The notes under the pieces are model-generated. The model was given only the letters and a program-made list of their open reading frames with translations. It searched no databases and was not told the origin of the DNA. Positions 2,408 through 64,000 of a DNA stretch of 64,000 nucleotides are shown here, in pieces. Within the stretch, counting starts at the first letter, position 1; each line of letters begins with the position of its first letter. The DNA comes from a virus (taxonomy: Duplodnaviria > Caudoviricetes). The stretch covers positions 1 through 64,000 of the IMG/VR virus record IMGVR_UViG_3300021399_003033; one strand, written 5' to 3'. The position numbers and the translations under genes are program-made.

Positions 2408-2627
2408 AGAAGAAAATATTACTCAAATTATAGATGGAATTAAACTATCTACTTTTTCTCCAAAAGAAGGAGAAACAATATTTATAACAGTAGATTCAAA
2501 TGAACTTGATTTATATACAAGACAAAAAATTTTTGAAGCAATTAATCAATTATTTCCATCACATAATATATGCCTTAAAGAAAAAGGTATAACTTTAGAA
2601 TCTCAAATGGAGGATGATTTAAAGTGA
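2394..2627 (+). CDS. Hypothetical protein (77 aa)
   Basis: ATG at 2394 overlaps the gyrB end; its stop overlaps the GTG of the next gene. Confidence 0.55.
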   Translation: MSISKEENITQIIDGIKLSTFSPKEGETIFITVDSNELDLYTRQKIFEAINQLFPSHNICLKEKGITLESQMEDDLK

Positions 2628-3130
2628 TTATATATACAGATGGAAGTGCAAATCCAAATCCTGGACCTGGTGGATATGGTATTGTAATACTTGATAATGA
2701 TGAAAATTTATTATATAGTATATCAAGAAGATTTAAATATACAACAAATAATGAGATGGAATTAAAAGCAATATTAACAGCTTTTATTCTTTATGGAACA
2801 AAAAATAAAGAAGATATTTCTACAATTTATACCGATTCAGAATATTCAAGAAAAACATTTACAGAATGGATGTTTAATTGGGCAAAAAATGATTGGTTAA
2901 ATTCTAAAAAGAAGACTCCAGAAAATATTAATATTATAACAGATTTTTATTAGATGTGGAATGAAGGCTATCGAATTAATATTGAAAGAGTTCAAGGTCA
3001 TTCTAATCATAAATGGAATGATTTAGCAGATTCTCTTGCTGGAGGAACTGGAAAAATTATTATAGATAAAGGTTTTAGTGAATTATTAGAAAATCGAATT
3101 AATATATTACAAAAAGAAGGATTGTTATGA
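2624..3130 (+). CDS. rnhA: Ribonuclease HI, 168 aa (one TAG=Gln at 2951-2953)
   Basis: YTDGSA, TNNEMEL, IYTDS. The C-terminal motif ERVQGHSNHKWNDLADSLA (last catalytic Asp) lies downstream of the TAG, and the TGA at 3128-3130 overlaps the next ATG (ATGA). Confidence 0.9.
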
Positions 3131-3471
3131 ATAAAAACTGTCCTAATTGTGGTGCCCCATATGATGTTGGCTTAAATAAGTGTCCATATTGTGGAACATC
3201 ATATTTCGACATGAGTGCTATTGATTTTGAAAATGGAGAACCTTTCTATTTAAAAATTAAAATGAATAATATAATTATTACTCAACTTGTTAAACCTGTA
3301 TTAAATGATATGATAATAGAATATGAAAATACTTATATTACAGGAGGTTGTAGTAATACAACGATAGCAGCTTATAATACAGAACCACGAGCAATAACAA
3401 ATATAAATTTTGAAGCTATACCAGATAAAAAAAATAATAATACGTTAGTAATGATAAAAAAGGAAAAATAA
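3127..3471 (+). CDS. Zinc-ribbon protein (114 aa)
   Basis: CPNCG-x9-CPYCG at the N-terminus. Confidence 0.65.
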   Translation: MNKNCPNCGAPYDVGLNKCPYCGTSYFDMSAIDFENGEPFYLKIKMNNIIITQLVKPVLNDMIIEYENTYITGGCSNTTIAAYNTEPRAITNINFEAIPDKKNNNTLVMIKKEK

Positions 3472-5844
3472 ATGGAAAATATAATTCAAACACCGATTAT
3501 ACCAGAAGTTGAACAAAGCTTTCTTGATTATAGTCTAAGTGTTATTACTGATAGAGCATTACCTTCTGCGGAAGATGGGCTCAAGCCAGTAGCAAGACGA
3601 ATCCTTTATGATATGTTCGATAAAGGATATATGAATAATAAGAAATTTGTTAAGTGCGCGCAGCCTGTTGGTGATACAATGGGTAGATTTCATCCGCATG
3701 GTGATTCTAGTATTTACGGAGCATTGGTGTGGTTATCTCAACCTTGGAATATGAGATACCCACTTATTGATTTCCATGGAAATAATGGATCTCGCGATGG
3801 TGATGAGCCGGCCGCATATAGATATACAGAATGTAAACTTTCTAAAGCTGGTGAAGAAATGCTGGCTGATATAAAGAAAGATACAATAGATTGGATGAAT
3901 GCTTATACTGATGAAGAGCAAGAACCAGTTTATCTTCCAGGTAAAATTCCAAATCTTTTAGTCAATGGAACAACTGGTATTGCTGTTGGTATGGCTTGTT
4001 CTTTTGCACCTCATAATTTAAAAGAAATTATGGATGCAGCAATTCATGTTCTTTTATATCCTGAATGTGATATTAAAGAATTGCTTGAAATTGTAACTGG
4101 TCCTGACTTTCCTACTGGAGGTTTGCTTATTAATAAAGATGAATTAACTACAGCTTATCTCACAGGAAAAGGAAGAGCAAGAGTTAGAGGCGAATATCAT
4201 ATTGAATCTGATAAAAATGGAGATACAATAGTATTTGATAGTATTCCATATAAAGTATCAAAAGATAATTTAACTATTGAATTAGATAAGCTTTGTGAAG
4301 CAGGTGAGCTTAATGGCGTAACAACTATTAGAGATGAAACTAATGCTCAAGGTGTTAGATTTGTAATTGAGCTTGCTAAAGGTGTTTCAGCAGAACCAAT
4401 TATTAAAAAGATTTATGCTAAAACAAAATTAGAAGATACATATAGTTTTAATCAAGTCGCTCTTGTAGATAAAAAACCAAGACTACTTAATTTAAAGCAA
4501 CTTCTTGTAAATTATATTGAGCATCAAAGAGATGTTTTAATTCGTAAATCTAAATTTGAATATGCAAAAGCTGAAGCAAGAGCACATATTCTGCAAGGCT
4601 TATTAAAAGCACTTGAAGATATTGATAATATTATTCAATTAATTAAGAAATCAGAAAGTGCAGCAAAGGCAAAAGAAAACTTAATTTCTAAATATACTTT
4701 TACAGAACCACAAGCAAAAGCAATTTTGGATATGAAATTAAGTAAATTAGCAAATCTTGAAAAAATAGAAATTCAAAATGAATATAATGAAAAAATTGCT
4801 GAAATGGTAACTTTATCAGCAATTATTAAAGATCCTACTCCAGCTTTAACAAATCTTTTTGATGAAATTAAGCAAAAATTTGGAGATGAGAGAAGAACAA
4901 AAATTACTCAAGTTTCTGAATCTAAAGAAGAAAAAGAAATTGAATTTATTGAACCAGAAAAATGTGTTGTCGTGATGAGTGAAGATGGATTAATTAAAAG
5001 AATTCCTTCTTCTAGTTTTAGAACACAGCATAGAAATGGTAAAGGCGTTAAAACTCTTGGAGATATTACTTCTGCTGTAATAAAAACAAATACGATTGAT
5101 TCTTTAATGGTATTTACAAATAAAGGAAAAATGTATCGTATTTTAGTTAATGATATTCCAGTAGGAACAAATGCAACAAAAGGACAGAGTATTAAGTCTT
5201 TAATTGCAATGGATACGAATGAAGAAGCAACTTTAATTTATTCTATTTATAGAGATACAAATGCTAAATATATTTTATTTGTAACTAAAAATGGTGTTAT
5301 TAAAAAGACTTCTTTAGATGAATATACAAAGACTAAGAAAAAGACAGGAATTGCGGCGATTGGTCTCAAGGAAGGAGATACTCTAGCTTCAGTGGGACTT
5401 TGTTCTGATGAAGATTTGATTCTTCTTACTCATGAAGGTATGGGAATTAAAATTAGTTTAAAAGAAATTCCTACTTCTTCAAGAACTGCAATGGGTATTA
5501 AGGGTATTACTCTTAAAGAAGATGATTATGTGGTTGCGGCCTTGCCTGTGAGACACACAACAGACCAGCTTGCAATCTTCGCAGAGTCGGGTCTCGGCAA
5601 GAAAATTAAGTTAGAAGAACTTCCTGTACAGAAGCGCGCAGGAAAAGGATTAATGGTTTATAAACCAACATCTTCTTCTGGAAAAATTGTTTGTGGTACA
5701 TTAGTAGAAGATTCTGATATGATTCTTCTTATTGGCCCTCTTAATTCAATATGTATTTCCGCAAAAGATATTCCTCTTTTATCTAGACCTTCTCTTGGAA
5801 ATATCATGATGAAAGGTGTTATAAATTCTGTTACTAAAGTATAA
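3472..5844 (+). CDS. gyrA: DNA gyrase subunit A, 790 aa
   Basis: DGLKPVARR, FHPHGDS, AAYRYTE (catalytic Tyr), and C-terminal beta-pinwheel repeats with GyrA-box-like QHRNGKG and QKRAGKG. No TAG. Confidence 0.93.
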   Translation: MENIIQTPIIPEVEQSFLDYSLSVITDRALPSAEDGLKPVARRILYDMFDKGYMNNKKFVKCAQPVGDTMGRFHPHGDSSIYGALVWLSQPWNMRYPLIDFHGNNGSRDGDEPAAYRYTECKLSKAGEEMLADIKKDTIDWMNAYTDEEQEPVYLPGKIPNLLVNGTTGIAVGMACSFAPHNLKEIMDAAIHVLLYPECDIKELLEIVTGPDFPTGGLLINKDELTTAYLTGKGRARVRGEYHIESDKNGDTIVFDSIPYKVSKDNLTIELDKLCEAGELNGVTTIRDETNAQGVRFVIELAKGVSAEPIIKKIYAKTKLEDTYSFNQVALVDKKPRLLNLKQLLVNYIEHQRDVLIRKSKFEYAKAEARAHILQGLLKALEDIDNIIQLIKKSESAAKAKENLISKYTFTEPQAKAILDMKLSKLANLEKIEIQNEYNEKIAEMVTLSAIIKDPTPALTNLFDEIKQKFGDERRTKITQVSESKEEKEIEFIEPEKCVVVMSEDGLIKRIPSSSFRTQHRNGKGVKTLGDITSAVIKTNTIDSLMVFTNKGKMYRILVNDIPVGTNATKGQSIKSLIAMDTNEEATLIYSIYRDTNAKYILFVTKNGVIKKTSLDEYTKTKKKTGIAAIGLKEGDTLASVGLCSDEDLILLTHEGMGIKISLKEIPTSSRTAMGIKGITLKEDDYVVAALPVRHTTDQLAIFAESGLGKKIKLEELPVQKRAGKGLMVYKPTSSSGKIVCGTLVEDSDMILLIGPLNSICISAKDIPLLSRPSLGNIMMKGVINSVTKV

Positions 5845-5846
5845 TT

Positions 5847-5871
5847 ATAAGGAAGCTTAAAGCTTCCTTAT
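5847..5871 (+). terminator. Hairpin after gyrA
   Basis: ATAAGGAAGCT-TAA-AGCTTCCTTAT perfect inverted repeat. Confidence 0.55.
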
Positions 5872-5873
5872 GG

Positions 5874-5904
5874 TTGATTTTTTATAAAAAAAAATATATA
5901 TAAT
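5874..5904 (+). promoter_or_regulatory. sigmaA-type promoter for ligA
   Basis: TTGATT-17-TATATA (TATAAT at a 19-nt spacer). Confidence 0.6.
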
Positions 5905-5931
5905 TTAAGAAATAAAATTTGAGGAAATTTT

Positions 5932-7884
5932 ATGACAAAATCAGAAGAAAAAATTAGACAATTAATTGATTTGTTAAATTCTACTACTGCACTATATGAT
6001 AGTGGACATACTATTCTTACAGATGAAGAATGGGATGAAAAATATTTTGAATTACAAAAATTAGAAAAAGAAACTGGTATTATTTTTAAAGATTCTCCCA
6101 CGCAACAAATTAATTATAGTACAGTAACTGCTTTAAAAAAAATTGAACATAATCATCCAATGCTTTCATTAGATAAAACAAAAGATTTGGCCGAAATAAA
6201 AGCTTTTCTTAGTAAGAAAGATTTTATTGCAATGGCTAAAATGGATGGTTTAACTTGTTCTTTAACTTATGAAAATGGAAAATTAGTTCGAGCAGAAACA
6301 AGAGGTAATGGTACTATTGGTGAAGATATTCTTCACAATGCAGAAGTAATTCCTTCTATTCCAAAGCGTATTAATTATAAAGATCAGGTCATTATTGACG
6401 GAGAAATTATTTGTACATATTCTGATTTTGAAACATTCTCAACAGAATATAAAAATCCTCGTAATTTTGCTTCTGGTAGTATTAGATTACTTAATTCAAA
6501 AGAATGTGAAAAACGAAAATTAAAATTTATTGTTTGGGATATTATTAAGCCATTTAATAATATATCTAATGAAATTATTGTTCAATTAGCTAAAGCAAAA
6601 ACATTAGGTTTTACCATATGTCCCTTTGATTTTGATGATGAAATTGAAAATCTTGTTGAAAAGATAAAAAAAGAATGTCAAGAATTATCTTATCCAATAG
6701 ATGGAATTGTATTTAAATTTAGAGATTTATCTTTAAGAGAAAAATTAGGATATACATCCCATCATTTTAAAAATGCTATTGCTTATAAATTTTATGATGA
6801 AATTTATGAAACAAGATTAAAAAGAATTAGTTGGACGATGGGTAGAACAGGAGTTTTAACTCCAGTGGCAGTTTTTGATCCAATAGATATGGATGGTTCT
6901 ATTGTTGAAAGAGCTAGTTTACATAATGTTTCTGTAATGAGAGAAATTCTTGGCGATTGCGCATATGTGGGTGAACATTTGCAAGTATATAAAGCAAATA
7001 TGATTATTCCACAAATTGCTTCAGCTGGACCTCATTATGACTATGGATATGTTGTTTCTCATGGTGGTGTTTCTGCAAATGATTCTCCAGAGTATTGTCC
7101 CATATGTTGCGGAATAGTTAGTTATAAAGATAATAATGGTGTTGTGACGCTTGAATGCGACAACCCTTATTGCGAAGGTAAAATTCTCAATAGACTTGAA
7201 CATTTTGCCAGTAAAAAAGGATTGGATATAAAAGGGCTGTCTCTGGCGACATTTGAAAAATTACTTGATTGGAAATGGATTGAATCTTTAATAGATATTT
7301 TTAAATTAAAAGAACATCGAGAGGAATGGATATCTAAACCAGGATTTGGTGTTGCTTCTGTTGATAAAATTTTAAATTCTATTGAAGAAAGTAAAAATAC
7401 TACATTAGATGCTTTTATTGCATCTTTAGGAATCCCTCTTATTGGAAATACAGTATCAAAAGAATTAATTAAATATTTTAAAACATATGATGAATTTAAA
7501 GATGCTGTAAATGATGATACATATCATTTTTCCATAATAGATGGATTTGGTCCAGAAATGGATAACGAATTAAAATATTTTGATTATTCTGAAGCTGATG
7601 AAATATATCATTTATTAAATATAAAAATTCCAGAAGAAAAAGAAGAAAATTTAAAACTAAAAGATTTAACTTTTGTTATTACAGGAAAATTAAAAAAATA
7701 TAAAAATCGTGCGGAACTTATTGATGTGATCTCTCAAGCTGGAGGTAAAGTTGCTAGTTCTGTTAGCGGTAAAACTAATTATTTAATTAATAATGATATT
7801 ACCTCTAATTCTTCAAAGAATTTAACTGCTAAAAAGCTGGGTGTTAAGATTATAACAGAAGAAGATTTTGAAAAAATATTTTGA
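5932..7884 (+). CDS. ligA: NAD-dependent DNA ligase, 650 aa
   Basis: HPMLSLDK, KMDG adenylation motif, TRGNG, NPRNFASGS, DGIV, AIAYKF, GRTG, C4 zinc finger, HhH repeats and a C-terminal BRCT (FVITG...VSGKTNYLI). No TAG. Confidence 0.95.
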   Translation: MTKSEEKIRQLIDLLNSTTALYDSGHTILTDEEWDEKYFELQKLEKETGIIFKDSPTQQINYSTVTALKKIEHNHPMLSLDKTKDLAEIKAFLSKKDFIAMAKMDGLTCSLTYENGKLVRAETRGNGTIGEDILHNAEVIPSIPKRINYKDQVIIDGEIICTYSDFETFSTEYKNPRNFASGSIRLLNSKECEKRKLKFIVWDIIKPFNNISNEIIVQLAKAKTLGFTICPFDFDDEIENLVEKIKKECQELSYPIDGIVFKFRDLSLREKLGYTSHHFKNAIAYKFYDEIYETRLKRISWTMGRTGVLTPVAVFDPIDMDGSIVERASLHNVSVMREILGDCAYVGEHLQVYKANMIIPQIASAGPHYDYGYVVSHGGVSANDSPEYCPICCGIVSYKDNNGVVTLECDNPYCEGKILNRLEHFASKKGLDIKGLSLATFEKLLDWKWIESLIDIFKLKEHREEWISKPGFGVASVDKILNSIEESKNTTLDAFIASLGIPLIGNTVSKELIKYFKTYDEFKDAVNDDTYHFSIIDGFGPEMDNELKYFDYSEADEIYHLLNIKIPEEKEENLKLKDLTFVITGKLKKYKNRAELIDVISQAGGKVASSVSGKTNYLINNDITSNSSKNLTAKKLGVKIITEEDFEKIF

Positions 7885-8539: not shown

Positions 8540-9544
8540 ATGGTTAATATTATTATAGGAATTGTATTTGGAATCTTAATTACATTAATTATTTTTTATC
8601 CTAAATATAAGAAAAAAGTTTAGTTAGATGAAGATAAAGTTAAATAGAATATAAAATTAATAAAAGAAATTGATATAAAACAAAATGAATTAAATACATT
8701 AGATCTTTTAAATTCAGAAAAAGAAAAACGTAATTAGGATTTATAGAAAAGAATTGTAGATGCTACATAGCAATTAACTTAGATTGATAATTAGGCAGCT
8801 GAAGCCGCTGAAAATTATAAGAAAATTCACATAGATAAAGCAGAAGCTGAAATTAAATTAAAAGAAAAAAATTTAGATTTAGAATTTTAGAATTATAAAA
8901 AATTTATTAATGAATCTAAAGATGAAGCAATAAAAGAATATTTAATTACTTTAAGTGATTTAGTAAAATATTATTAGGATAAAATTACTAAATATTCTGT
9001 TTCTACTGCGGAAGCCGCTAAAAAACTCACAGAGTTGCAATCAAAAGTAGATGCAGCGGTCGCCGCAAACAAACGTCAATTTGAAGAAGAAAATCAAAAA
9101 GATTTTTATCGTTTAATTATAGCTGAAGAAGATTTAAAAGAAATTTCTAAAATTAGAGAAATTATTCCTTATTTACGAAATCCAGAACCATTAAATAAAG
9201 TTATATATAAATATTATTATGAAAAACCTTATAATGATTTAATTGGTCGAGTATTAGGTTCAAAGATTCATACAGGCATTTATAAAATAACTAATTTAAA
9301 TAATGGTTTATGTTATGTTGGACAAGCAGTTAATGTCGCTGATAGATGGCGACAACATATTAAACGAGGTCTGGGCGCAGAAGCTCCTACGCAAAATAAA
9401 TTATATCCAGCAATGTTAAAAGAAGGAGTAGAAAATTTTTCTTTTGAATTAATTGAAGATTGTGATAGAATTAAGTTAAATGAACGAGAAGATTATTGGC
9501 AAGAATATTTTAAAGCAAAGGAGTTTGGTTATAGTATAAAATGA
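8540..9544 (+). CDS. Membrane-anchored coiled-coil protein with a C-terminal GIY-YIG nuclease, 334 aa (9 TAG=Gln)
   Basis: MVNIIIGIVFGILITLIIFYP transmembrane segment and a K/E-rich coiled coil, open in frame to the 9035-9544 ORF with only TAG interruptions; GIYKITNLNNGLCYVGQA...RWRQH...E-x-YW motifs. Confidence 0.8.
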
Positions 9545-9839: not shown

Positions 9840-10007
9840 ATGAAAAAAATTGAAATTACTTTTAAAGATGGTGGATTAAGAACTTGGGATTCTGAAGATT
9901 ATACAGATTATATTTTTCAAAAGCCAAATTTTTTTATTGTAATTAATGGTAGTTAGTGGGTTGGTATTTATAATCTTGATGAAATAAAGGAAATTATTGT
10001 AAAATGA
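9840..10007 (+). CDS. Hypothetical protein (55 aa, one TAG=Gln)
   Basis: MKKIEITFKDGGLRTWDSEDY...; its TGA overlaps the ATG at 10004 (ATGA). Confidence 0.6.
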
Positions 10008-10888
10008 AATTTGAAAATACAAGAGTATATAATTTTGAAAATTCTTTTCGAGGAATGAGAAATCCAAAAAATAGCTGGGATTTAAGTGATAGTTATTTTA
10101 ATATTACTGATAATGAAGATGGAGAAATTCTTAAAGTCGCTAATGCTTGGATTCAACAAGATCACCCTGATTGGAATGGACATAATGAAGAACATAAAAA
10201 ATTTGTTGAATTACAAGATGAATATCTTAATTGGCTAATTACAAATGGTATTTTAAAAGAATCTAAAGACAAAGAATCTAAAGACCATGATTATAAAGAA
10301 GTTGCTTATATTGGACCTAAAGATATGCATTTAGCTTAGCTTTTAATTCGTTCTGGTCCAGAACATCGCAAATTTCTTCGTCAAATTTTTGTTTCTGTGG
10401 ATATAACTGCTCCACTCTATTGGTGGAAAGAAGCTGACACCTACAAGGTCGGAACAGTCGCGAACAGTACTTCTACAATGCATAAGCTTGCATCATATCC
10501 TATTACAGAAGAATGTTTTGAAATGGGAGATTATAATGGTGATTTAAAACCATATGAAGGTAATCCTATATGCTTAGATACTACTGTTAAAACTATTTGG
10601 AATAATCTTATAATTGATTGTGAAAATCTTCGCAGATGTTATAATGAAACGAAAGATATTCGCTATTGGAAAGAATTAGTACGACTTCTTCCAGAAAGTT
10701 GGCTACAAACTCGTACTATAACAATGAATTATGAAAATCTTCTTGCAATATGTTCTAAAGGACAAAGAAGAAATCATAAATTAATTGAGTGGAGAGAAGA
10801 TTTTATTAATTGGGCAAGGACTTTACCGTATGCAAACCAGTTAATTTTTATAGATGAACAAACTTCCCAAGATTTTACATTAAGTTGA
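10004..10888 (+). CDS. Divergent ThyX/Thy1-like flavoprotein, 294 aa (one TAG=Gln at 10337-10339)
   Basis: RGMRNPKNSW; after the TAG, EHRKFLRQIFVSVDITAPLYWWKEADTYKVGTVANSTSTMHKL; later LLPESWLQTRTITMNYENL...RRNHKLIEW. The motif order matches the ThyX fold, but the canonical RHRx7SxR is absent. Confidence 0.6.
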
Positions 10889-48627: not shown

Positions 48628-48655
48628 CAAATATCCTCCTTTTTATTATATTTTT

Positions 48656-52006: not shown

Positions 52007-55000
52007 TTAAACTTGTTCAAAAACAATATTTATTAAAGTAGAAGCGTCTGTTACGCCACTAATCTAAATACATTTTCCGCCATTTGGTCCACCAGTTTCA
52101 ATCATATTACGTAATGCAGTATAATCACTAGCAGAAGTCTTAAAGGTTATTGTTGAAGGATATACATTAGCAAAACGCATAATAGCTTTACCAGAATTTC
52201 CTCCTATTAATAATTGACAAGGATGATTATTATCTCCAATTACAATTTCTTTTGGACTATTTAAAATATTGGATACAACTCTTTCATCCATAAATTTAAT
52301 ATTACCACCGAAATATAATGTTTTATTTGTCATTTCTGAATTAAAGCAGTTTGATAAAGCATATGTTCCAATAGAAATTAAATTATTCCAGTTAAAATTC
52401 ATTGGTTTTAAACTACTATCTTCAAAGAAAACATACTCACCTATCTAAGTAATAGAATCTGGTAATTCGCAAACTTTTAATTTAGACATTCTTGCAAAAC
52501 AATATCTGTCTAAACTTAATAATCTAGATGTTACATTCTATTGGAAATAAATATGAGTTACATCTTTACCAAAGCCACTTAAATTATAACATTCAATTCT
52601 AACAACAGGTGTTCCATTAATTTCTAATGGTAAAGTAATTTTTCCAGATAAATTGTAAGCATTTCCATTTTCATCAGTTCCAAGAGATAAAGCATATCCA
52701 GAAACACTCTATTGTTCAGAACTTGGTAAGAAAGGATCTACTACAACAGAAGCTGTTCTCCAAGAGAAGTATTTTAAATCAGTAACAGAATCATAAACAG
52801 ATTCTTTTATAAAGCAAGCATAGAAAGTCATATCGGATGTTGAATAAACAAAATCAAGATTTACAGTTTTTGCAACACTTCTATTAGCTGCAATAACAGC
52901 TTTTTTATCTTGAGTCCATCCAATAAATCTATATCTTTCTTCATCTCCAAGAGAACTCTCGTCAATAATTGGAACTATGGCTGGAGTTATTAATTTATCT
53001 CCATAAGGAATATAATCAGTTTGAACCTCAGTAAATCCAGTAGATTCTGTTCCGGTTTTAAATTCAATCTTAAATTTATGTTTTACGAAAATAACATAAT
53101 ATGTATATTCAAATTGGCCAGATACTAAATGACTAATTGTAGAATTATTCCATTCATTAGATCCATCAGATGTTTCTGAAGATAAAGAAACTAATGTTTC
53201 ATCTTCTCGATTTACAATATTCCAACCTTTAAAGTCATAATTATCACGTTTGCCTTCATAAAGAGCAAAAGGATTACTAAAAGTATTTTTTGTAGAAGCT
53301 TCATTTACACCGATAACCTAAACACCTAAAGTCTTATAAGTTCCATCATCTTCCATAGAAATAAATCTTGCATGATATCCTTCATTAACATGCGCAAAAT
53401 GGAAATGTAATTTCGGGAATCCAGTGCTATCATTCATTAAAATATTTCTAATATCAGATTCATTAATGGCGGTTTCATTATTAACATAAATTTCACCAGT
53501 AATATTTGGTGTACTTGTTCCAGTAGAAGTTGTATTTTTGAAAATTATTTGAGTAATAAAATCTCTAAACATCTATACATCAGTAATTGTTAAAGCCTGT
53601 GCGGCCGCCACTTCAGTATCTAACTTATAAATTTCTTTATTCTTTAAAGCTAATGCCCAATCTTCATCATTAGTATAAACGTAAGGTTTAAAACCATAAT
53701 GGAAATCATCAACAAAATATTGAGTATTACTATCACGAACTTCTTCTTCATCAACAATTAAGTAAGGTGACCATTGGACATTTTCAAGATTAATCTTTAA
53801 ATCACTATCCCAATTTCTAGCTTTTTTAATTTGATAAAGTACATTTATCATCTTATAAGTATCATAACCTAAATTACCACCGACAATAGAGAAGCTCTCA
53901 ATATTTGTATTTGTATTAGCATTAATAGAATCAGAGTCAATTAAATTTGTTAATCCTTCAATATATAAACCAGGTCTTGCAATCCAAGAATCCATATCTC
54001 CATGGAAGTTTAATGCAATTGCGTCAGCTGCCCAAGATGGGTTATCAGAAGCATTAGCATCATAAGTTTCCATCCAGATAGAAGGTTCTTTTGTAGTTAA
54101 TACATTGGTCAAATTGGCTGCTTCAACTAATTCAACAGATTTAATTGTATTTGGTAAATATAATGTATTTAAAGCAACACCTTTAGCGAAAGTAACACCA
54201 TCAATATTAGAGCCTAAAGCTTTAAATATCTCAAGTTTTTCTGAACTTGTAAATACGAAGTTTACAGAGTTGCTATCTTTAATTGTGCAGTTTGTTAAGT
54301 TAACTTCTTTAAGAAGAGGCTTACCAACACCTCTTTCAATATCCGCATCAAAGTCTGGATATTTTAAATTCTTATTAAAGAATTCTGGATCATCACAACC
54401 AAGTAAAATTCTTGATAAGTGAGTGGCTCCAGGAGCGTAGAATTCAGCATAGTAAAGTCTACTAATATCTCCAATATCTTTCAAACTCTTACCACCGAAA
54501 ATATATACTAATTGCTCTGCATAATTAGGGCTTGTTAACATACCATTTACGATAGTTGTAGAGAATGGATAATCAACAACCTGACCATTAAATGCTCTAG
54601 ATGGAAAAGCTTCATTATCTGTTCCAAGAGTAACATAAGAGTTCTGATATGGAGTAAGACCGATAAATGTATCAGCATCAAGATAATTAGTCTTTTTCTT
54701 TCTACCTGTTTTATAAGTAGTAATACCATCAAGATAATATGGTGTATCAGGAATTAAGTTTGTATTGCTTCCAGCTGTACCAGTTACCCACTTATCTGAG
54801 TTATTATCTGGATAGCTGTTTGCGGACATACGTCCACGAATTGATGTACCCTCTGCTCTAGAATAGTCTCCTAATCCAAGCCAAGAATCAATGAAGTTAA
54901 TACGTCTAGCAAGGAACTGCTGACGAGATAAGCTTCTATCTCCTTGTAAAGCATAGAAATAAGTACCACCATCAGTAGCAAGTGAGCCATCTCTACTCTG

Positions 55001-58000
55001 ATATTGTACTTTTGGATTCGTAATAGAAATATATTTATAAAACTCATCCATGTTTATAATAGCTAAAGGTCTAGAACCACGCATTTCAATTTCACCAGAA
55101 ACATCTGGATTAGCACGATACCAACCTTCAATAGTATCAATATCATAGAAAGGTCCCTTCTTAGTTATATTACCTCTTTGAATTTGACCTTTAAGAGTTG
55201 AATATGTACTCTTAATATTATCAAAGAAGCAAGCGAATAGATTATTCCATAATACACTATCAGAAGTTGAGAAACAATCTTCTTTAGTTGCATTTACAAA
55301 ATAATCGAAAGAAGGAATACCAGTATTATTAATACCTAATTGAGTATCCATATCATAGAAAATTGGATACCAAATATAATCACCATTTGCGGTCTGAGGA
55401 CCCCAAGTAGCCATCATACAGTTCTTACCACGAGAATCGTAGCACATTAATACTTCTGTGACTACGAAGTAAATTAAACAATAATCAAGATTAAAATGAG
55501 AACCTAATTCAGCTGTAAACTTAGCTTTTCTATATTCTTTACTATCCCAAGTATAAGTAGTTGCACCATATGTAACAGTCTTTGGAACAGCAACGAAATA
55601 ATTCTCACTAGCTCCATCTACTAAACTAGCAGCAAATACTTCTGGAGTAGGAGTTTGAATTTCATCTTCATTTACATCATAATATTGTATATTAGCGTCA
55701 TATTCTGTTGCAGGAACATAATCAGCAATTAATCTTGCTTTTCTAAGACCATTTATATAAGAATTAGTACCCTCGATAACAAGACCTGTTTCTAAATCAA
55801 ATTCAGAAGCAGTAGTTGCATCACCTTGAGAAGGAACGGAATCTGTACAAGTAGACCATACCCACTGACAAGCAGCTTCCCAATTCTTCATCTTATCAAA
55901 TAATGTTTCTGACTTCCAATCTATATCCTATAATTGAGAAGCTTCATAACCATCTTCAATTAATGATGAATATAAATCACCATTCTTAACAGGATCATAG
56001 AAGTAATCAAGTAAATCATCATCTGGATTATAACGATACTCATAAGAGTCTGCTACAATTGGACATGAACTTAATGAATTAAGTCCTCTATCAATCTTAC
56101 CTACTAATCCAGCAGTAACCTGTTCTTCAGTCGCGGTTTCTGCAGAAATTGTTTTATGCTTACCTGTTAAAGGATCAACTGTATAATAATCGAAATTTAA
56201 CTTATGTCTTCCAAGAGGATCTCTAAAAGAACAATAACCACGGTTATTATCAGAATATTCCCAACACTCAACTACCTTACTTACTGCCTTCTTCTTCTTA
56301 TCAAAAGCAGCAACAATCTTTTTATTTGGCTTAAAACCATAGCATTCATCAGATCCCTTATCAAGAAGCATATTGTAACGACCAATATAAGTGTACTTAC
56401 CATTAGCATCTTTCCAGAAAGTCATAACAGGGAATCCTTGAATGTTAGTTCTATAAGAATCAGTGTTATCAAATTGATAAGGTTGATAAGTCTCAGTATA
56501 AATAGCACCCTTTTCCGCAATTAAAGCATCTAATTCTTCTTGAGTTTTTGGCTTAACTTTAGTTTTTCCTTTACTATCTTCATAATAAGTTCTATTCTTA
56601 TCAAATGTAGTAGCTGGCTCATATCCAGAAATCTTCAAGAAAGCTCCAGCTGCATTAAGGTCATCTAGAGGATGTCTAGAATAAGCGTTATTAACTAAAT
56701 TACCAAGACCCATATTATAAGTTCCAGAAGACTCCATATAGTCAATCTTCATTGTGAACTTAGTAGTTCCTACAACGTAGTTATTCATGTAGAAGAAATC
56801 AAGTCTTGTAGACTCTGGATCTTCATTATACATTTCAAGGAACGGACCCTTGTTCATAATCATGTTAATAACATCTTCTTCTTCTGTACCAACTGTTCTA
56901 GTTCCTTTTGTCTTAGCTTTATAGTTACGGCGAGGATAGAACTCAGAAGAAGTACCCTGAACAGATAACTTAACATTAAATTTAGCATTATTATCATTAC
57001 CATATACACTAGTAAATGATGGACAATGATGCTTATAATAATATTGTACATTTGTTAAACCTTCTGCAGCCGCCGCTTCTTTCTGCGCAGGACCCATAGC
57101 ATTAGCTAATTCCTCTAACTCTCCAGTAGCATAAGCTCTTTCAAGTGGAGTGTTAACAAATGTAAATGCAATTGTTTTAGCCTGTGCCTTACTAAATGGT
57201 AAAGCATCGCCTGTATTTGTTTCAAATATTACATATGGCATTAAGTATTCATTTGGATCATTGGCATATGCATCACTTGTATAGTTCATTGCAGCCGCTG
57301 GATCAATCTGATACTCACCAATATCAGTATTAGAAACAAGTAAGAATCTAGTATGGTCATAATCTCTAACACTCTTATGGTCTACAGCATAATTCATAAG
57401 AATATCTCTGATAGATAATGCGCCATTATAAACTCTAAATTTATATAAATCAACATCACAATATTCAGAATTAAACTTTAAGTTCTGAGTATTGATAGTA
57501 ACTGCCTGTGTATCTCTAATATTTGTAACAGATGTAAGAACACCATTTAAATACATGTAGATACGTTTATCAGTATAATTGAATACAATAGTTAAATTAA
57601 TTAATTTATCTTCAACATACTTAACGTTAACTGTAGAACTTCCAGAAGAGAAGAATCCATCTTGAGGTCCTAAACAGAAACCATGATTACCAGAATCATA
57701 GTATGAACAGAAAGCTGCTGAAGTATTAGTTTGCTTATAGACATGAGAGAAACTTGCGGTTAACTCATCATATGTCTTATGATCTGGATTCAATGGGGAA
57801 CCATTAAATTCATAAGTATAACCTTCTTCAGTAGCAACGAAATTTTGAAGATAATCGTCATAGTTAGTGAAGTGAGACTGTGCTAAATAAGCATCCCAAT
57901 ATCTATCATCACCAGAATAACGTGTAATTTCTTTTACTAAGTTACTATAATCTTGAACATTACGAACCTTAAACTCTAATTCAAAAGTACGAGACTGATT

Positions 58001-59587
58001 AGCTACAGTAGTAGCATCATTAATAATCATACTTCCAATAGGAATACTAAATTCAGCACCATTACTGATACGAAGCATAGTGTCTTTATTTTCATCTAGC
58101 ATCCAACCATTATTATACCAGTTAAAATCTTTAAAAGTTGCTTTTTTATCTCCATATGTCCAAGTTGCACGCTTAGTTGCAGATTCATTATTGCTGCGGC
58201 CAGCCGCATCAAAAGAAATTAAAAGATTTTCTTTTGAAACAAGAGTCATATCTCTATTAGGATCTTGAATAACTTCAAATTTAACATCACGAGAAATTGA
58301 AACACCAGTATCAGTATTTTTACAAGTGATAGTATAAGTATTTAACATACCAACTTCTGTATCTGTTAATTCTAAGATTTCAAAATCTTTACTTGTATTA
58401 GATACTTCTCTTGGAGAAGAATCTAATTCAGTAATACCTTTAAAGAACTGAACTGTTGTATTCGCAGTTTTTGGATTATAAACTTTGAATGGAATTTTTA
58501 CAGAATCATAATTATAATATAAAGAACCATAATCTCCTAACCAAATAATAGGATCCATTGAAACACCATCACTAACAGCAATTTCAAATTGTAATGGCTC
58601 TTTTACTCCAACGCCCTCTTCTCCATTAATAGATTGTAATAAATCAATAGTAACTGTATGATAACCGTGGGTAATTCCACTTACTTCACATTTTTGTTCT
58701 CCAGCAGCACCTTTTCCAAGGACTTGTCTAGATTTCACTTCGCCATCAATAGACCATTTTAAAATTTTATCAATAGCGCCACTAATATTACAATACATAG
58801 TAAAAGAAGATCCAAATGCACTTGCGTTTGTAAATTTCTCACTAGGCGTTAATGTTAATTCAACTGTAGTAACTTTAAAGTTAATAGTTCTAGTAGATCC
58901 ACTATTAACACCAGCAGCAGTAATATATAAAGTAGAACTAGCAGAATTTCTTAATTGATTACCAAATTCAAAAGTGTATGGTTTTCCACTAGGAACAATA
59001 AAACTACCTTGTGCATAAGTTATTTTAGTTTCATCTAATTCAATTCGCCATGAAATTGTCATCTCTTCATCCATGGCTTCTCCATCTTGATCAAGGGCTG
59101 ATGTTGCGGTAAAAGTCGCTGCAATATTTTGACCATTTACAATAGTTGAGGTTACTAAAGTAGAGCCTTTAATAGTAGCTGCGCGAGCTTGAGAGCCACC
59201 GCCGCCTCCTCCGCCACCAGATCCACTGACAGCAAGTCTTGTACATATGGCTTGTCTTTCTTCATCATAAACTTCGGTAACTCTAAAAAAAGAACCATCA
59301 GAGTTTAAAATTAAGTCATTTGCAAAAACTTTTTTATCAGGTTCATCGAGCTAATCAAGATCATAAACATAGCTAAAATTTCCATCTGCATCTGCAACTT
59401 CTTGCGGATTTGCATCATGACCATAAATTAAAGAAGCACCACCGCCACCTAATGGAATTCTCTATTCATGCGCATCCATCCACATTTTTCCAGTGTCTTC
59501 AGCGAATAAAATAGCACCATCAGTAACGGCTTGATTCATTAAATCTTCTTCAATGCCTCTAATTGGCTTAAAAGTTATATCGCTCAA
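52007..59587 (-). CDS. Giant multidomain protein, 2526 aa (9 TAG=Gln): Ig-like, LamG-like, CotH-like kinase, leucine-rich and B-repeat-like regions
   Basis: TTG start with an AAGGAG RBS; four ORF-track pieces are one frame; CotH-type motifs QGTSS..YPRRNYK, KIDYMES, YIGRYN, DSRGKN, PIFYDMDTQLG; BspA-like LPDSITQIGEYVF. Confidence 0.8.
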
Positions 59588-59717: not shown

Positions 59718-61520
59718 TTAAAATGTTCCCCATACAATATCAGCCACAATAACAGTAGATTTATCTTCTGTTCCAGTACCTGTATTCGTATTAGTTAACT
59801 ATAAAGTTGAAGATTCGATAGCAAAACTACCAGCTTTAGTAGTTACAGTATCACTATTAATTGGATTCTTACCAATGATAGTATTTGTAACTGTTGCTGT
59901 TGAAGTGTTATTAACAGTTGTGACAGAAGATTCATAATCATTTTTATTGATATTTGTGAAAGTATCAACAACAGTAATATCTTTTGTTTTAACTCCAATA
60001 ACATGCCCTTTAGTATCTCTTGTTACCGCAGTAACTGCAGTAAATGATAAAGATTCTCCAGCAGCTTGATCAAAATTAGTTCCACCACCAGTTTTCTATT
60101 CTTTTGTCGCTGGAGCTGCGGTACCGCCTTCTGTTGCAACATTACTGTGAGAAATTAATACTTTATTACCGATGATATTAGAACCACTAACAAAAGAATC
60201 TCCATCAATAGTGATATTATCGCCAGCATAAATATCTAATTCTGCGCAAGCCTCATTTTCAATAGTATCTTGAATTTTAATACCTTGATATGGCTTAGAA
60301 GCAAAAACGCCATCTCCAGAAGCGCCTTCGCCTTCAGTTGGTTTACCAATATAAGTAGTATCATTATATCTATCATTTCCAGAAGGAACAATATCCCAAA
60401 CTAGACCAGAAGTAATTAATCCAGTTGTAGGATCTTCTGTTCCTCTAGCAATAATCATATCTCCAGTTTTAGCTTGCTTATTACCATCATCTGTTGGTAT
60501 ACTTAATATATCAGCATCTAATAATAAAGTATCTCCAACTCTTACTCCAGCATTACTAACATCTACTAAAGTCCTAGAGTTTCCAACAGTTCCTCTATAA
60601 GACATAGCATCTAATCCAGTTAATTTTTTATCTAATTCATCTTTAGTATAAACTGGAAGAGTTGCTAAACCATTTTGGAATTTTACTGTTTGCTAAGTAG
60701 CTGTATCTGCGCCAACTTTAATTTGAGGATTAATAGTTGCTTTTTCACTATTTCCCTTAGTATCAGAAACAGTTACAGAAAAACCTTCTGCTTCATTGGC
60801 TCCAACAGCAGTATTTAACTGAGTATCATTACCACTAATTAAAATATCATCGCCATCTTTAGAAATGGTGATATTTCCACCACTTTTTAAAGTTACGCTA
60901 CTATCATGACCAGAGTCTGAAGATAAAGAAAGATCAACTGTCTTTAATACTGAATTTTCTGTCCCAGCACTAAGACTATATTGATCTCCAGAAATTGTTA
61001 AAATATCTCCAGTTCCATCAACGTTATTATCTGTTACTCCAACAGTAATACCATTATTACCTTGAACCTTAAAATCTTTAACAATACTATCACCAGCATC
61101 TTCACTAGTTGGCATTGTTTCAGTAATACTAGTACTTACTGTTGCTACTCCATTAGTAACAGTAATATTTATTTTTAAATCTTTTAAATGAGTATTTGTA
61201 TTAGGATTTATCTAAACCCATCCATGTTCGCTACCAGTCTAACTAGATGCAGAATAAACACATAAAATATTCTATGCTGTCACATAATAGAACTAACCTA
61301 CATAAGCTGATTCATTACCAGCAGTAACTCTAGGTAAATCTCCTAATGAGGTTACAGTGTTTACACCTTCATTAACAGGAACTGCATCACCATTTGCGCG
61401 ACCGATATATAATCTATGAGTATCATTTGTTAAATAAAATGAACCTTCTATAGCTGTTTTATTACTTCTTATTTCATTAAGAGCTGATTGAGTTCCTTGT
61501 TTAAAAAGAACATTAGCCAT
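59718..61520 (-). CDS. Tail fibre/appendage-like protein, 600 aa (7 TAG=Gln)
   Basis: GGAGAGGAG RBS; N-terminal MANVLFKQGTQ...GSFYLTNDTHRLYIG module; three ORF pieces in one frame. Confidence 0.7.
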
Positions 61521-61542
61521 AAATTATATCTCTCCTCTCCTA

Positions 61543-62379
61543 TTAAAGTTCACTGCCATCAGCCTCATTCATATCATGCCATCTTAATTTATCATATAAT
61601 ATTCCTACATCATATTGTAAATCAGTAATATTCTATGGATCTAATGCATCGATTTGAGTTTGCATATTACTAACGACAGTAATAAGTCCCTCTAAATTAT
61701 TTGTCCAATCGGGATTTTTAGTATCATAAAGAGTATTTTCAATTTTTAATATACGAGTATTAAAATTACTTGCATCATCTGGGTGATCCTAAATCCAATC
61801 TGCAATCTCTTTTAATGTATCTAAAGATTCTTTTGCATCAACAGGAATTAATTGTTTTGTTAATTCTTCATTTGCAATATCTCTAATTGATTTAGTAACA
61901 GATCCATTTTGATCAACATCTTCTCCAATTAAAGTCATTACAGTAGAATGAAGATTATCAAATTCTCCTTTTGTTGCAGCTTGTGCCCAAGTACCATCTC
62001 CACGAAGAAATTTTACCTAGTCACCCTTTTTAGGCTATGGAACTAATCCTGCTTTACCATCTGTTTCAGCAGTAGCACCAGTCATTTCTTTGACAACAGA
62101 TTCTAATACTTCTTTTGGATTTTTTGCTTCCCAATGTCCAGCGTCATCACTAACAAGTATTTGACCTTCAGAACCATCCCAAATTACATTGGAAAGATTT
62201 TCAAGAGCAATATTAACATTACTAGCATCTAAACCAGTAATTAATTTATCTCCTAAATATAGAACGCCTTTTGTAGCATTGACTTCTGAAATAAAATAGA
62301 GAGTATCTTGATTTTTAACGCTTAAATTTTTATAAGCATTAGGAGTACCACGCAGAAATCTTACATAATTAACTGCCAT
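61543..62379 (-). CDS. Tail fibre-like protein, 278 aa (4 TAG=Gln)
   Basis: AAGGAGG RBS; MAVNYVRFLRGT...LYLGDKLI; AGLVP-x7-FLRGDGTW; LDTLKEIADWI fibre motifs. Confidence 0.7.
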
Positions 62380-62410
62380 TTTATTAGCCTCCTTGTTTTT
62401 ATTTCATTTA

Positions 62411-62458
62411 CTCTATAATTTTTATAAAATATTAAAAATAAATTAATTTAAAATGTCC
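62411..62458 (-). promoter_or_regulatory. Putative late-promoter motif, copy 5
   Basis: GGACA-TTTTAA-ATTAA...TATAGAG (36 nt after GGACA). Confidence 0.55.
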
Positions 62459-62460
62459 TT

Positions 62461-62766
62461 TTAATTCCCCTCTTCTTCTTCTTCTTCAGTTGGAGCTGGA
62501 GTTGGAGAAATTATATTTTGTAATTCTGTTATCAAATCATCTAATTCTGTAGAATTAACCCCAGAATTTTTTACAATATTTGATAAAATATAAATTTTAT
62601 TATATAAATCATCTATTTTAAACTCTATTTTTCCTACATGCTATGATAAATTATCTGTATTATTAAAAGTTACTTCTCCTGTAGTATCAGGAGAAGTAAC
62701 TTCAAAAGCATGGGTTTTTAGAGTATTATAAAATCTCTATAATTTTTCTGTATTAATTAAACCCAT
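62461..62766 (-). CDS. Hypothetical protein, 101 aa (2 TAG=Gln)
   Basis: GGAGG RBS and TAATG overlap with the upstream gene; acidic tail. Confidence 0.6.
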
Positions 62767-64000
62767 TAAGGTGTACCTCCATTAGAAAAGATAGCATCTA
62801 TTTCTTCATCAGTTGCAATTTCAATTGCTTCTGCAACTTTCTAGAAAGCACTATTAATAGAATCTGTTTCAGCTATTAATTCACTTGTAGATTGATAATC
62901 TGTTAATAGTAAAGATCCTACTTTCTTTGTTTCAAAAGATAAAGCTCCAGTAGTATCAGAAATTAAAACTGAATTTAAAACTAAATCATTTGAACTATTA
63001 ACTGCTGATACAGTTGGCAAAGTAATAGTATGTTCTTCAAGAGATACTACATGCCCCATTTGGTCAATACTTGCGGACAGTGCCTTAAAAGTGGATCCAA
63101 AGCCAGGTGTTTGTGCTGCTGTATCTCCTTTACTCACGGCCGCAGAACCAGCTGCCGCATGTCCTATAGCAATTTGATCATTAGTATTATCACCATTAAT
63201 TTCAATCCATCTATTTCCAGATTTAAATGTTATAGAATCTGCTGATGAAGTAGCATTTATACTAGCATTATTACCAGTTATAGAAGTTGTACTTGCGCTT
63301 GTTCCAGTAATATTAAAGGTTTTGAAATTATTCGGTAAAACATATTTATGGCTCTAATTTGCAATAACATGTCCAGCTGCATCAAACTCTAAATCTTGGA
63401 CAGTAAAATCTGAAACAGTTTCTAAATCAGTATCAGCTTTAGCAGTATTAGTAATAGTATGAATTTCATGTGCAATACCAACTAAAGTATTAGTATTATC
63501 AGCAACTAATTTAATCCATTTGTTTTGAGCTTCAAAAGCTAAAGTCTCTAAAATATCCTATGCAATAACATTTCCATCTGTTCCAGAAATTGTTGTTGTA
63601 TTAGTTGTATTACTTACACCAATTGTCTTATAGCTATAAGGAAGCGTAAATACATGTGGTTTATTTTCTATTACATGTCCAGCTAAATCAAATACTAAAT
63701 CTTGAATTGTTAATGTATTTCCAGAACTAACTGCATTGAAATCAGTAGTGCTAGAAGTTGTAATAATATTATGCGTTTCATGAGCAAGAACTAATTTATC
63801 ATTAGTTGCATCACTTTGTAATCTGATCCATTTATTTCCTGCTGAAAAAGTTAAAATATCTTTTGTATTATCAGCTACAATATCATCAGTACTTTCACCA
63901 GTTGAATGGGTTGCTCCGGCGGCTTGCGACCATAAGTTCTCGTCATCAGAACTATTTTCACTCTTCAAAATTTTGAAAGTAAATGGTAGGGTTACTGTTT
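62766..64000 (-). CDS. 3' part of a repeat-containing tail fibre-like protein (5'-truncated by the window; at least 3 TAG=Gln)
   Basis: Three repeats of about 95 aa (F.A.NKWI...AHE...QDL.FD.AGHV...H...LP); ends ATDEEIDAIFSNGGTP-TAA. Confidence 0.7.

What the first reader, a model, noticed from the sequence alone, without database searches (positions are those of the whole stretch)
2624..62843. TAG is reassigned to glutamine (translation table 15) on both arms
About 30 genes are broken only by in-frame TAG and become full length when it is read through. TAG falls on conserved Gln positions: NrdD SRSGN-Q-LPFTSIN (26709), NrdG FFV-Q-GC (28086) and dUTPase motif 4 GDAIG-Q (30641). Read-through restores ATGA/TAATG couplings (3127, 10004, 30745, 62766), and all rebuilt genes end in TAA or TGA. 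Several genes (RuvC, the holin, the HEXXH peptidase) are invisible in the standard-code track. TAG-to-Gln recoding is established in Lak megaphages and some crAss-like and other gut phages; here it appears in a phage with Firmicute-type signals and a bacterial-style DnaE/gyrase replisome.
Basis: partly seen in the sequence, partly recalled or inferred. Interest (0 to 1): 0.85.

Follow-up and report, generated by a model that had tools for sequence, protein, structure and literature searches.

The report
Phage that reads TAG as glutamine
This is about 44% of the genome of a large phage, probably from a ruminant gut, that reads the stop codon TAG as glutamine; the trick is already well documented in gut phages, so this is a solid new example rather than a new phenomenon.

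Summary
Confirmed. The window is the first 64 kb of a 73.6-kb fragment, 44% complete by CheckV; complete relatives are 146-188 kb.

- **Coding density:** reading TAG as sense raises ORF cover of the window from 75% to 94%. It gives 58 tightly packed genes (96.7% coding) carrying 203 in-frame TAGs. In the window, 136 TAGs lie in 33 of 55 genes.
- **Full-length genes:** Pfam domains (NrdD, NrdG, RecJ, RuvC, RNase H, dUTPase) run unbroken across the TAGs.
- **The residue is Gln:** in relatives where TAG is not sense, TAG columns hold Gln 55% of the time. True CAA/CAG columns score 57%; background is 3%. Gln beats the next residue, Lys, by 41 log-likelihood units. Two NrdD TAGs fall on columns that are Gln in 120/120 homologues.
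- **Suppressor tRNA:** the record has no tRNA, but a 99.9%-identical contig extends it upstream and carries a tRNA-CUA about 26 kb before the window. Both complete TAG-recoded relatives also have one, and one of them encodes an RF2-type release factor.
- **Distribution:** TAG supplies 13% of Gln codons on the replication arm and 37% on the structural/lysis arm.

All of this matches the published picture (Borges et al.; Peters et al.), including Firmicutes-infecting 130-200 kb clades that mix codes 11, 15 and 4.

One thing seems unreported: the suppressor tRNA has an extra arm whose loop looks like a tRNA-Gln anticodon loop.

Another first-stage reader of this scan noted the same recoding on an overlapping window.

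The parts
494..7884 (+). TAG-free replication genes GyrB (494-2407), GyrA/topo IV-like (3472-5844) and NAD-dependent DNA ligase (5932-7884). The stretch also holds RNase H (2624-3130), with one TAG at 2954 inside its domain.
   Evidence: Precomputed Pfam on the 99.9%-identical contig L106; RNase_H E 4e-28 across the TAG; TAG counts.
8540..9544 (+). GIY-YIG nuclease-domain protein, 9 in-frame TAGs.
9840..10888 (+). 55-aa gene (1 TAG) coupled by ATGA at 10004 to a 294-aa gene (1 TAG).
14110..15654 (+). DnaB-type helicase. Its only TAG is the penultimate codon, so sense versus stop cannot be told apart.
17090..18859 (+). RecJ-like DHH exonuclease, 9 TAGs. Codons 318 and 330 are Gln in 21/21 and 20/20 informative relatives.
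20882..24772 (+). DnaE-type DNA polymerase III alpha, 1296 aa, no TAG.
   Evidence: Pfam PHP, DNA_pol3_alpha, finger and HHH_6.
25767..28004 (+). NrdD anaerobic ribonucleotide reductase. TAGs at 25881, 25932, 26388, 26595 and 26709.
   Evidence: Pfam NRDD 2-562/562 in one stretch, E 2e-143. Codons 208 and 315 are Gln in 120/120 homologues. Gln at codon 315 in three solved NrdD structures.
28017..28496 (+). NrdG activase. The TAG at 28086 (codon 24) is Gln in 11/11 informative relatives and TAG in 9 others.
30161..31242 (+). dUTPase, whose TAG at 30641 is Gln in 9/9 informative relatives, coupled by TAATG to RuvC (3 TAGs).
31877..35348 (-). Small late genes including the HExxH protein (31877-32191, 2 TAG) and the holin (34914-35348, 4 TAG). 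33225-34055 is TAG-free.
   Evidence: PHROGs.
35330..48630 (-). Tail and structural genes: 696 aa (8 TAG), 1200 aa with Gp10_C baseplate domain (18 TAG), 689 aa lectin-like (6 TAG), 1492 aa (19 TAG).
49518..51620 (-). 700-aa protein of unknown function, TAG-free although it lies within the late arm.
52007..59587 (-). 2526-aa structural protein with BspA-type LRRs, 9 TAGs.
59718..64000 (-). 600-aa (7 TAG), 278-aa (4 TAG) and 101-aa (2 TAG) genes, then the C-terminal part of a 1643-aa gene (25 TAGs) that runs past the window end to 67697. TAATG coupling at 62766.

Best explanation
The window belongs to a large (about 150-190 kb) tailed phage that uses genetic code 15: TAG is translated as glutamine, and TAA and TGA are its terminators.

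Shown: the genes are whole only when TAG is read through, and TAG behaves evolutionarily as a Gln codon.

Shown for the lineage, not for this record: the phage carries its own tRNA with anticodon CUA. It sits in a tRNA array about 26 kb upstream of the window, on the same strand as the replication arm.

Inferred:
- A host enzyme charges this tRNA with Gln. No GlnRS or GluRS gene is found in the fragment or in four relatives. The tRNA has an unpaired 1-72 position and G73, the acceptor-end features of tRNA-Gln.
- The code is switched during infection. Genes needed first (gyrase, ligase, DnaE and the tRNA-repair genes next to the array) contain no TAG and can be made under the host's standard code. 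Structural, tail and lysis genes are dense in TAG (37% of their Gln codons) and can only be completed once the suppressor tRNA has accumulated. This is the timing model of Borges et al.
- A release factor may help. One TAG-recoded relative encodes an RF2-type factor. Whether this phage does is unknown.
For: (1) Coding density rises from 75% to 94%, giving 58 genes at 96.7% coding with 203 in-frame TAGs.

(2) Pfam models match end to end across TAGs: NrdD, NrdG, RecJ, RuvC, RNase H, dUTPase, AAA_24.

(3) I ran tblastn with X at each TAG against G002 (TGA-recoded) and G003 (standard code). With at least 8 of 16 flanking residues identical, 21 of 38 TAG columns are Gln (55%). True CAA/CAG columns score 57% and background Gln is 3.1%. 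The log-likelihood puts Gln ahead of Lys by 41 and of Glu by 51.

(4) NrdD codons 208 and 315 are Gln in 120/120 homologues. RecJ 318 and 330, NrdG 24 and dUTPase 161 are Gln in all informative relatives.

(5) In 36 related loci, the 310 aligned TAG columns hold TAG 88 times, CAA 77 and CAG 33. The next most common are GAA (25) and AAA (21).

(6) TAG+CAA+CAG per 1000 codons is 30.5 on the plus arm and 32.2 on the minus arm. TAG alone is 4.0 against 12.0 (Fisher p = 5e-14).

(7) ENA scaffold_1197 matches G000 1-12407 at 99.887% identity. It runs 26.9 kb upstream and carries a tRNA-CUA (RF00005, 56.8 bits).

(8) The complete TAG-recoded relatives G001 and G004 each have a tRNA-CUA. The TGA-recoded G002 and the standard-code G003 have none.

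(9) G001 has a release factor with SPF and GGQ motifs.

(10) All known bacterial stop reassignments concern UGA (PMC8629427), so a host that itself reads TAG as Gln is not expected.
Against: - There is no protein-level evidence for this phage.
- The 73.6-kb record itself has no tRNA, release factor or synthetase gene. The tRNA-CUA is assigned to it through a 12.4-kb overlap with another assembly.
- The tRNA's amino-acid identity is inferred, not measured. Its 5' half does not resemble any one isoacceptor family among 475 phage tRNAs, and its long extra arm is unlike any known tRNA-Gln.
- A few conserved TAG columns hold Glu or Lys in relatives.
- Three plus-arm TAGs near C-termini could still act as stops.
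- The timing model rests on gene content and TAG distribution only.
Confidence: 0.93

Rival explanations
1. TAG is sense but encodes another amino acid, such as Tyr, Ser or Leu (suggested by the class-II-like long arm of the tRNA-CUA), Lys, Glu, Trp or pyrrolysine.
For: - The tRNA-CUA is 91 nt with a long extra arm, as in bacterial Ser, Leu and Tyr tRNAs, and ARAGORN labels it 'Pyl'.
- The anticodon arm of G001's copy resembles that phage's tRNA-Tyr.
- Some variable NrdD TAG columns hold Tyr, Lys or Asp in distant homologues.
- A few columns are conserved as Glu or Lys.
Against: - Gln beats every other residue by at least 41 log-likelihood units, and Tyr, Ser and Leu are not among the six best.
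- Invariant Gln columns in NrdD, RecJ, NrdG and dUTPase carry TAG.
- TAG exchanges mainly with CAA and CAG in close relatives.
- The tRNA has G73 and an unpaired 1-72, not the A73 of Tyr and Leu tRNAs.
- Tyr tRNAs are the least similar to its 5' half.
Confidence: 0.03
2. TAG remains mainly a stop and is read through only at low efficiency by host near-cognate tRNAs. The in-frame TAGs would then act as attenuators rather than as a reassigned codon.
For: - No tRNA lies in the record itself.
- Early genes avoid TAG.
- Three TAGs lie close to C-termini.
Against: - Genes with 18-33 TAGs could not yield useful amounts of full-length structural protein by leaky read-through.
- The lineage carries a dedicated tRNA-CUA.
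- No gene needs TAG as its terminator.
Confidence: 0.03
3. The TAGs are true stops in a decaying or mis-assembled phage. On this reading the genes are pseudogenes or are genuinely split.
For: Under table 11 many genes appear fragmented.
Against: - Only TAG interrupts the frames, never TAA or TGA.
- Frames stay open for up to 2526 codons.
- Domains and homology continue past the TAGs.
- Independent assemblies at 99-99.9% identity keep the same TAGs: 16-18 of 20-22 columns in L006 and L017.
Confidence: 0.005
4. The host bacterium itself uses code 15, and the phage simply matches it.
For: The host is unknown.
Against: - All known bacterial stop reassignments concern UGA (PMC8629427).
- Uneven TAG use, with the gyrase, ligase and DnaE genes TAG-free, is what is expected for a phage infecting a standard-code host. 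Borges et al. report about 90% of genes recoded when host and phage share a code.
- The phage carries its own tRNA-CUA.
- Close relatives use code 4 or 11.
Confidence: 0.01

Closest known systems
Alternatively coded gut phages of Borges et al. (Jade, Sapphire and Agate clades; bioRxiv 10.1101/2021.08.26.457843, later Nat Microbiol 2022)
   Same: - Animal-gut origin, including cattle.
- Clade mean genome lengths of about 150-210 kb, and a roughly 127-kb Agate lineage.
- Low GC.
- Codes 11, 15 and 4 mixed among close relatives.
- Recoding concentrated in structural and lysis genes and variable in replication genes.
- Suppressor tRNA in part of the genomes, and RF2 in some TAG-recoded members.
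[quoted passage not shown]
   Different: Clade membership could not be tested. The fragment has no terminase, and the published genomes are not in the collections I could search. The suppressor tRNA's extra arm is not mentioned in that paper as far as I read it.
TAG-recoded crAss-like phages (code 15 shown by metaproteomics, Peters et al. 2022, PMC9523058)
   Same: TAG read as Gln, late genes recoded, and a phage tRNA-CUA.
   Different: The replication module here has DnaE, DnaB, gyrase and an NAD-dependent ligase. From my own knowledge, crAss-like phages replicate with family A or B polymerases and infect Bacteroidota. Here the endolysin with SH3 domains, XkdX and SD-like motifs hint at a Gram-positive host. 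No proteomics exists for this phage.
Lak megaphages
   Same: TAG recoding, a suppressor tRNA, RF2 in some members, and animal or human gut origin.
   Different: Lak genomes are about 560 kb and infect Prevotella. Complete relatives of this phage are 146-188 kb.
Classical amber suppressors charged with Gln (supE; mischarging mutants of su+3 tRNA-Tyr with altered 1-72 or position 73). This entry rests on my own knowledge.
   Same: CUA anticodon with U35, an unpaired or weak 1-72 pair, and G73.
   Different: Those are single mutants of cellular tRNAs. This is a conserved phage gene with an added hairpin, and its charging has not been tested.

Membership tests
Genetic code 15 phage (TAG = Gln) | In-frame TAGs in otherwise intact, conserved genes; coding density is restored only by reading TAG as sense | tested here: met
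   Cover rises from 75% to 94%, with 203 TAGs in 37 of 58 genes, and Pfam matches run across the TAGs.
Genetic code 15 phage (TAG = Gln) | TAG columns correspond to Gln in homologues | tested here: met
   55% Gln against 57% for true Gln columns and 3% background; the log-likelihood favours Gln by 41; invariant-Gln columns carry TAG.
Genetic code 15 phage (TAG = Gln) | TAG is not used as a terminator | tested here: inconclusive
   All 58 genes can end in TAA (45) or TGA (13). Three genes have a TAG 1-12 codons before the end that could serve as a stop.
Genetic code 15 phage (TAG = Gln) | Suppressor tRNA with anticodon CUA | tested here: met
   Absent from the 73.6-kb record, but present on a 99.887%-identical contig that extends it and in both complete TAG-recoded relatives.
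Genetic code 15 phage (TAG = Gln) | Peptides with Gln at TAG positions | not testable with these tools
   No proteomic data are available here.
Agate / Jade / Sapphire clades (Borges et al.) | Placement in the large-terminase phylogeny or by ANI to clade members | not testable with these tools
   No terminase in the fragment.
Lak megaphage | Genome above 500 kb | tested here: not met
   Complete relatives with terminal repeats are 146-188 kb. CheckV rates the 73.6-kb record as 44% complete.
Crassvirales | crAss-type hallmark genes and polymerase | not tested
   Only indirect evidence: the replicase here is DnaE-type. No hallmark search was run.

The most novel reading that the evidence does not exclude
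The suppressor tRNA of this lineage belongs to a widespread, apparently undescribed class of phage tRNA-CUA. These keep Gln identity through an added hairpin in the variable region. The hairpin has a 3-4 bp covarying stem and a 7-nt loop Y-U-[CUG or UUG]-A/C-R, a copy of the tRNA-Gln anticodon loop. It may serve as a decoy 'second anticodon' for the Gln-charging or Gln-tRNA-modifying machinery, while the true anticodon reads UAG. An unpaired 1-72 position and G73 complete the Gln-like identity set.
Probability: 0.2. Interest if true: 0.8.

Novelty: new member of a known kind. Interest (0 to 1): 0.35.

Why it matters
**Annotation.** Under table 11 more than half of the genes in this window are truncated or invisible, so any annotation, protein clustering or host prediction on this record and its many rumen relatives must use code 15.

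**Biology.** It adds a well-supported case, with a DnaE/gyrase replication module, to the picture of phages that switch the host's code in mid-infection. Within the set of phages that share its polymerase, TAG-recoded, TGA-recoded and standard-code genomes coexist, which makes the group useful for studying how codes change.

**Open question.** How a host enzyme is made to charge an amber suppressor with Gln is unresolved. The extra arm on this tRNA family gives a concrete, testable handle on that.

Tried and rejected
- **Megablast against GenBank phages:** 24 kb of the window gave no match.
- **tRNA search:** none found in the window, the whole record, or 40 polymerase-centred loci. The arrays lie elsewhere in these genomes.
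- **GlnRS/GluRS (PF00749):** absent from the record and four relatives.
- **Release factor (PF00472):** found only in G001. A search with that RF2 in IMG/VR returned only G001, a near-identical genome and two distant fragments, so I could not tell whether this phage has one.
- **Walking off the right end of the record:** failed, because the 700-aa TAG-free protein is not on record by exact sequence.
- **Origin of the tRNA-CUA:** comparing its 5' half with 475 phage tRNAs gave no clear nearest isoacceptor. My first idea that it derives from tRNA-Tyr is not supported.
- **Local code calls:** calls on 10-25 kb loci around DnaE or around tRNA arrays are unreliable because these regions are poor in recoded codons. 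I use only the whole-genome calls for G001-G004.
- **Host from NrdD homologues:** only suggestive. The best hits are mostly Bacillota MAGs (Erysipelotrichaceae, Clostridia, Bacilli), but many sit on 130-165 kb contigs that may be mis-binned phages, and some are labelled Bacteroidales.
Full report
**What the sequence is.** The window is bases 1-64000 of a 73,618-bp linear virus record (G000). Its GC content is 30%, it has no terminal repeats, and CheckV rates it 44% complete. Its DnaE-type polymerase finds 40 related IMG/VR loci. Among them are complete genomes of 146-188 kb with direct terminal repeats. G000 is collinear with positions 32.7-98 kb of the 188-kb relative G001. So the record is the middle of a larger genome.

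**Checking the observation.**
- Under table 11, ORFs of at least 100 aa cover 74.6% of the window. With TAG as sense they cover 94.0%, in fewer and longer frames. TGA as sense gives no such gain, at 76.8%.
- A greedy non-overlapping gene set with TAG as sense has 58 genes, is 96.7% coding and holds 203 in-frame TAGs. It includes frames of 1200, 1492, 1510, 1643 and 2526 codons.
- Within the window, 33 of 55 genes carry 136 TAGs.
- In the wrong frames of these genes TAA plus TGA occur at 49-131 per 1000 triplets, so such open frames cannot arise by chance.
- Pfam models match end to end across TAGs. NrdD matches profile positions 2-562 of 562 in one stretch with five TAGs inside. NrdG, RecJ (9 TAGs), RuvC (3), RNase H, dUTPase and AAA_24 behave the same way.
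- The holin and the HExxH protein appear only with read-through.

**Which amino acid.** I translated TAG as X so that the query could not bias the alignments.
- For NrdD, codons 208 and 315 are Gln in 120 of 120 homologues, which include many bacterial ones. The other three TAGs fall on variable columns, which are Gln in most of the nearest relatives. Three solved NrdD structures have Gln at the position of codon 315.
- Genome-wide, I ran tblastn of all 58 proteins against four complete relatives. G002 is TGA-recoded and G003 uses the standard code, so neither reads TAG as sense. In these two, where at least 8 of 16 flanking residues are identical, 21 of 38 TAG columns are Gln (55%). Columns that are CAA or CAG in G000 keep Gln in 57% of cases, and Gln makes up 3.1% of all columns. 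Using substitution frequencies measured on the same alignments, Gln is favoured over Lys by 41 and over Glu by 51 natural-log units.
- In 36 further related loci, the 310 aligned TAG columns hold TAG 88 times, CAA 77 and CAG 33, with GAA (25) and AAA (21) next.
- RecJ codons 318 and 330, NrdG codon 24 and dUTPase codon 161 are Gln in every informative relative.
- The summed frequency of TAG+CAA+CAG is the same on both arms, at 30.5 and 32.2 per 1000 codons. TAG alone differs threefold, as expected if TAG simply replaces CAR.

**How it is read.**
- The record has no tRNA gene. Complete relatives carry arrays of 14-30 tRNAs by the Rfam tRNA model (11-28 by ARAGORN), outside the part collinear with G000.
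- The GyrB protein of the window occurs, residue for residue, on ENA scaffold_1197 (47 kb). This scaffold matches G000 1-12407 at 99.887% identity. Two further look-ups followed it 26.9 kb upstream.
- That upstream stretch holds eight tRNA genes on the strand of the replication arm. One of them is a 91-nt tRNA with anticodon CUA, scoring 56.8 bits on RF00005.
- Near the array lie mostly TAG-free small ORFs, and downstream of it a TAG-free tRNA-repair module (Thg1-like, RNA ligase, kinase and phosphatases). The endolysin and a minus-strand tail-fibre-like block in the same stretch contain TAGs.
- Both complete TAG-recoded relatives have a tRNA-CUA. In G004, ARAGORN's 'intron' is better read as the extra arm. 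The TGA-recoded and standard-code relatives have none.
- G001 also encodes a 350-aa release factor with SPF and GGQ motifs, which makes it RF2-like. This matches the RF2 that Borges et al. found in TAG-recoded Agate and Lak phages.
- No GlnRS or GluRS gene is present in any of the five genomes, so charging by a host enzyme is inferred.

**Distribution of TAG.** GyrB, GyrA, the ligase, DnaE, an SF1 helicase and several small genes have no TAG. NrdD, NrdG, RecJ, RuvC, the GIY-YIG protein and dUTPase have some. The tail, structural and lysis genes have 9-34 per 1000 codons. TAG supplies 13% of Gln codons on the plus arm and 37% on the minus arm (p = 5e-14). This is the pattern that led Borges et al. 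to propose that recoding delays late and lytic gene expression until the phage has changed the cell's code. I adopt that as the likeliest function, but nothing here tests timing.

**Comparison with what is known.**
- TAG-to-Gln recoding in phages is established bioinformatically and by metaproteomics (PMC9523058).
- Borges et al. describe large clades from animal guts, including cattle. In these, codes 11, 15 and 4 occur among close relatives, the hosts are standard-code Firmicutes or Bacteroidetes, and suppressor tRNAs are found in 35-40% of genomes.
- The group found here looks the same: G001 and G004 use TAG, G002 uses TGA and G003 uses the standard code.
- A Gram-positive host is only hinted at. 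An endolysin with SH3_3 domains and an XkdX homologue lie upstream. SD-like motifs precede 40 of 58 genes. The NrdD neighbours are mostly Bacillota MAGs.
- All known bacterial stop reassignments concern UGA (PMC8629427), so a code-15 host is unlikely.

**An unexpected detail.**
- The tRNA-CUA has a U1·U72 mismatch, G73, a normal 5-bp anticodon stem with loop CUCUAAA, and a roughly 20-nt extra arm. An RNAalifold consensus of 14 related sequences gives a 6-bp acceptor stem with position 1-72 open, and a 3-bp extra stem with a 7-nt loop.
- The stem covaries (GCC/GGC, UCC/GGA, CCA/UGG, UCA/UGA; UAGU/GCUA in G004).
- The loop reads Y-U-CUG-M-R, or C-U-UUG-A-A/C. CUG and UUG are the two Gln anticodons. 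G004's loop CUUUGAC is identical to the anticodon loop of its own tRNA-Gln.
- I then scanned IMG/VR for long-arm tRNA-CUA without constraining the arm sequence, and obtained 60 unique sequences. Of these, 45 contain YUGA in the arm; 9.4 are expected by shuffling. A G-C pair at 1-72 occurs in only 5, and 42 have G73. Among 65 Ser, Leu and Tyr tRNAs from the same loci, only 4 have YUGA in the arm.
- These sequences are related to one another, so the counts are not independent events. The trait is nevertheless clearly conserved.
- From established knowledge of E. coli GlnRS, identity rests on a weak 1-72 pair, G73, U35 and G36. That suggests the arm may compensate for the loss of G36 in the CUA anticodon. 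Geometrically it is hard to see how one enzyme could read it, so I rate this at about 0.2.
- A full-text search for such a tRNA found nothing relevant.

**Verdict.** The observation and the interpretation are both confirmed with high confidence. The phenomenon is already known, so this is a new member of a known kind. The suppressor tRNA's extra arm is the one part worth following up.

Noticed in passing
L112:19359-19449 (minus strand), on the contig that extends the window about 26 kb upstream; also G001:11061-11151 and G004:45449-45546: The amber-suppressor tRNA has a conserved extra arm whose loop reads like a tRNA-Gln anticodon loop (U-YUG-A), with an unpaired 1-72 position and G73. Of 60 unique long-arm tRNA-CUA in IMG/VR, 45 share the YUGA motif, against 4 of 65 Ser/Leu/Tyr tRNAs.
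   Followed up: partly
L196, L226 and L230 (IMG/VR contigs of 12-111 kb): A different tRNA-CUA type: 87-89 nt, G1-C72, G73, a Leu/Ser-like D arm and a 5-bp variable stem with a 4-nt loop. SerRS ignores the anticodon, so these could insert Ser rather than Gln at TAG in their phages.
   Followed up: no
G001-G004 (relatives found through DnaE): Phages sharing a 59-68% identical DnaE use three codes: G001 and G004 TAG-sense, G002 TGA-sense, G003 standard. ARAGORN found no tRNA-UCA in the TGA-recoded G002.
   Followed up: partly
Upstream contig, L109:4859-12396 (about 7-14.5 kb before window position 1): TAG-free tRNA-repair-like module downstream of the tRNA array: Thg1-like protein, RNA ligase, two metallophosphatases and an AAA_33 kinase. 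It suggests defence against host anticodon nucleases.
   Followed up: no
L196-L247: Twelve of 40 loci that carry the same tRNA-CUA anticodon arm gain ORF cover with TGA as sense rather than TAG. This may be an artefact of short, tRNA-rich loci, or it may point to phages that hold an amber suppressor while using code 4.
   Followed up: no
window 49518-51620 (-) and 33225-34055 (-): Two genes on the late arm are completely TAG-free (700 aa and 276 aa, both of unknown function) among neighbours with 8-30 TAG per 1000 codons. They may need to be made before the code switch.
   Followed up: no
G001:133322-134392: RF2-type release factor gene (SPF and GGQ motifs) without TAG in a TAG-recoded relative. 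A pattern search found it only in G001, a near-identical genome and two distant fragments.
   Followed up: partly
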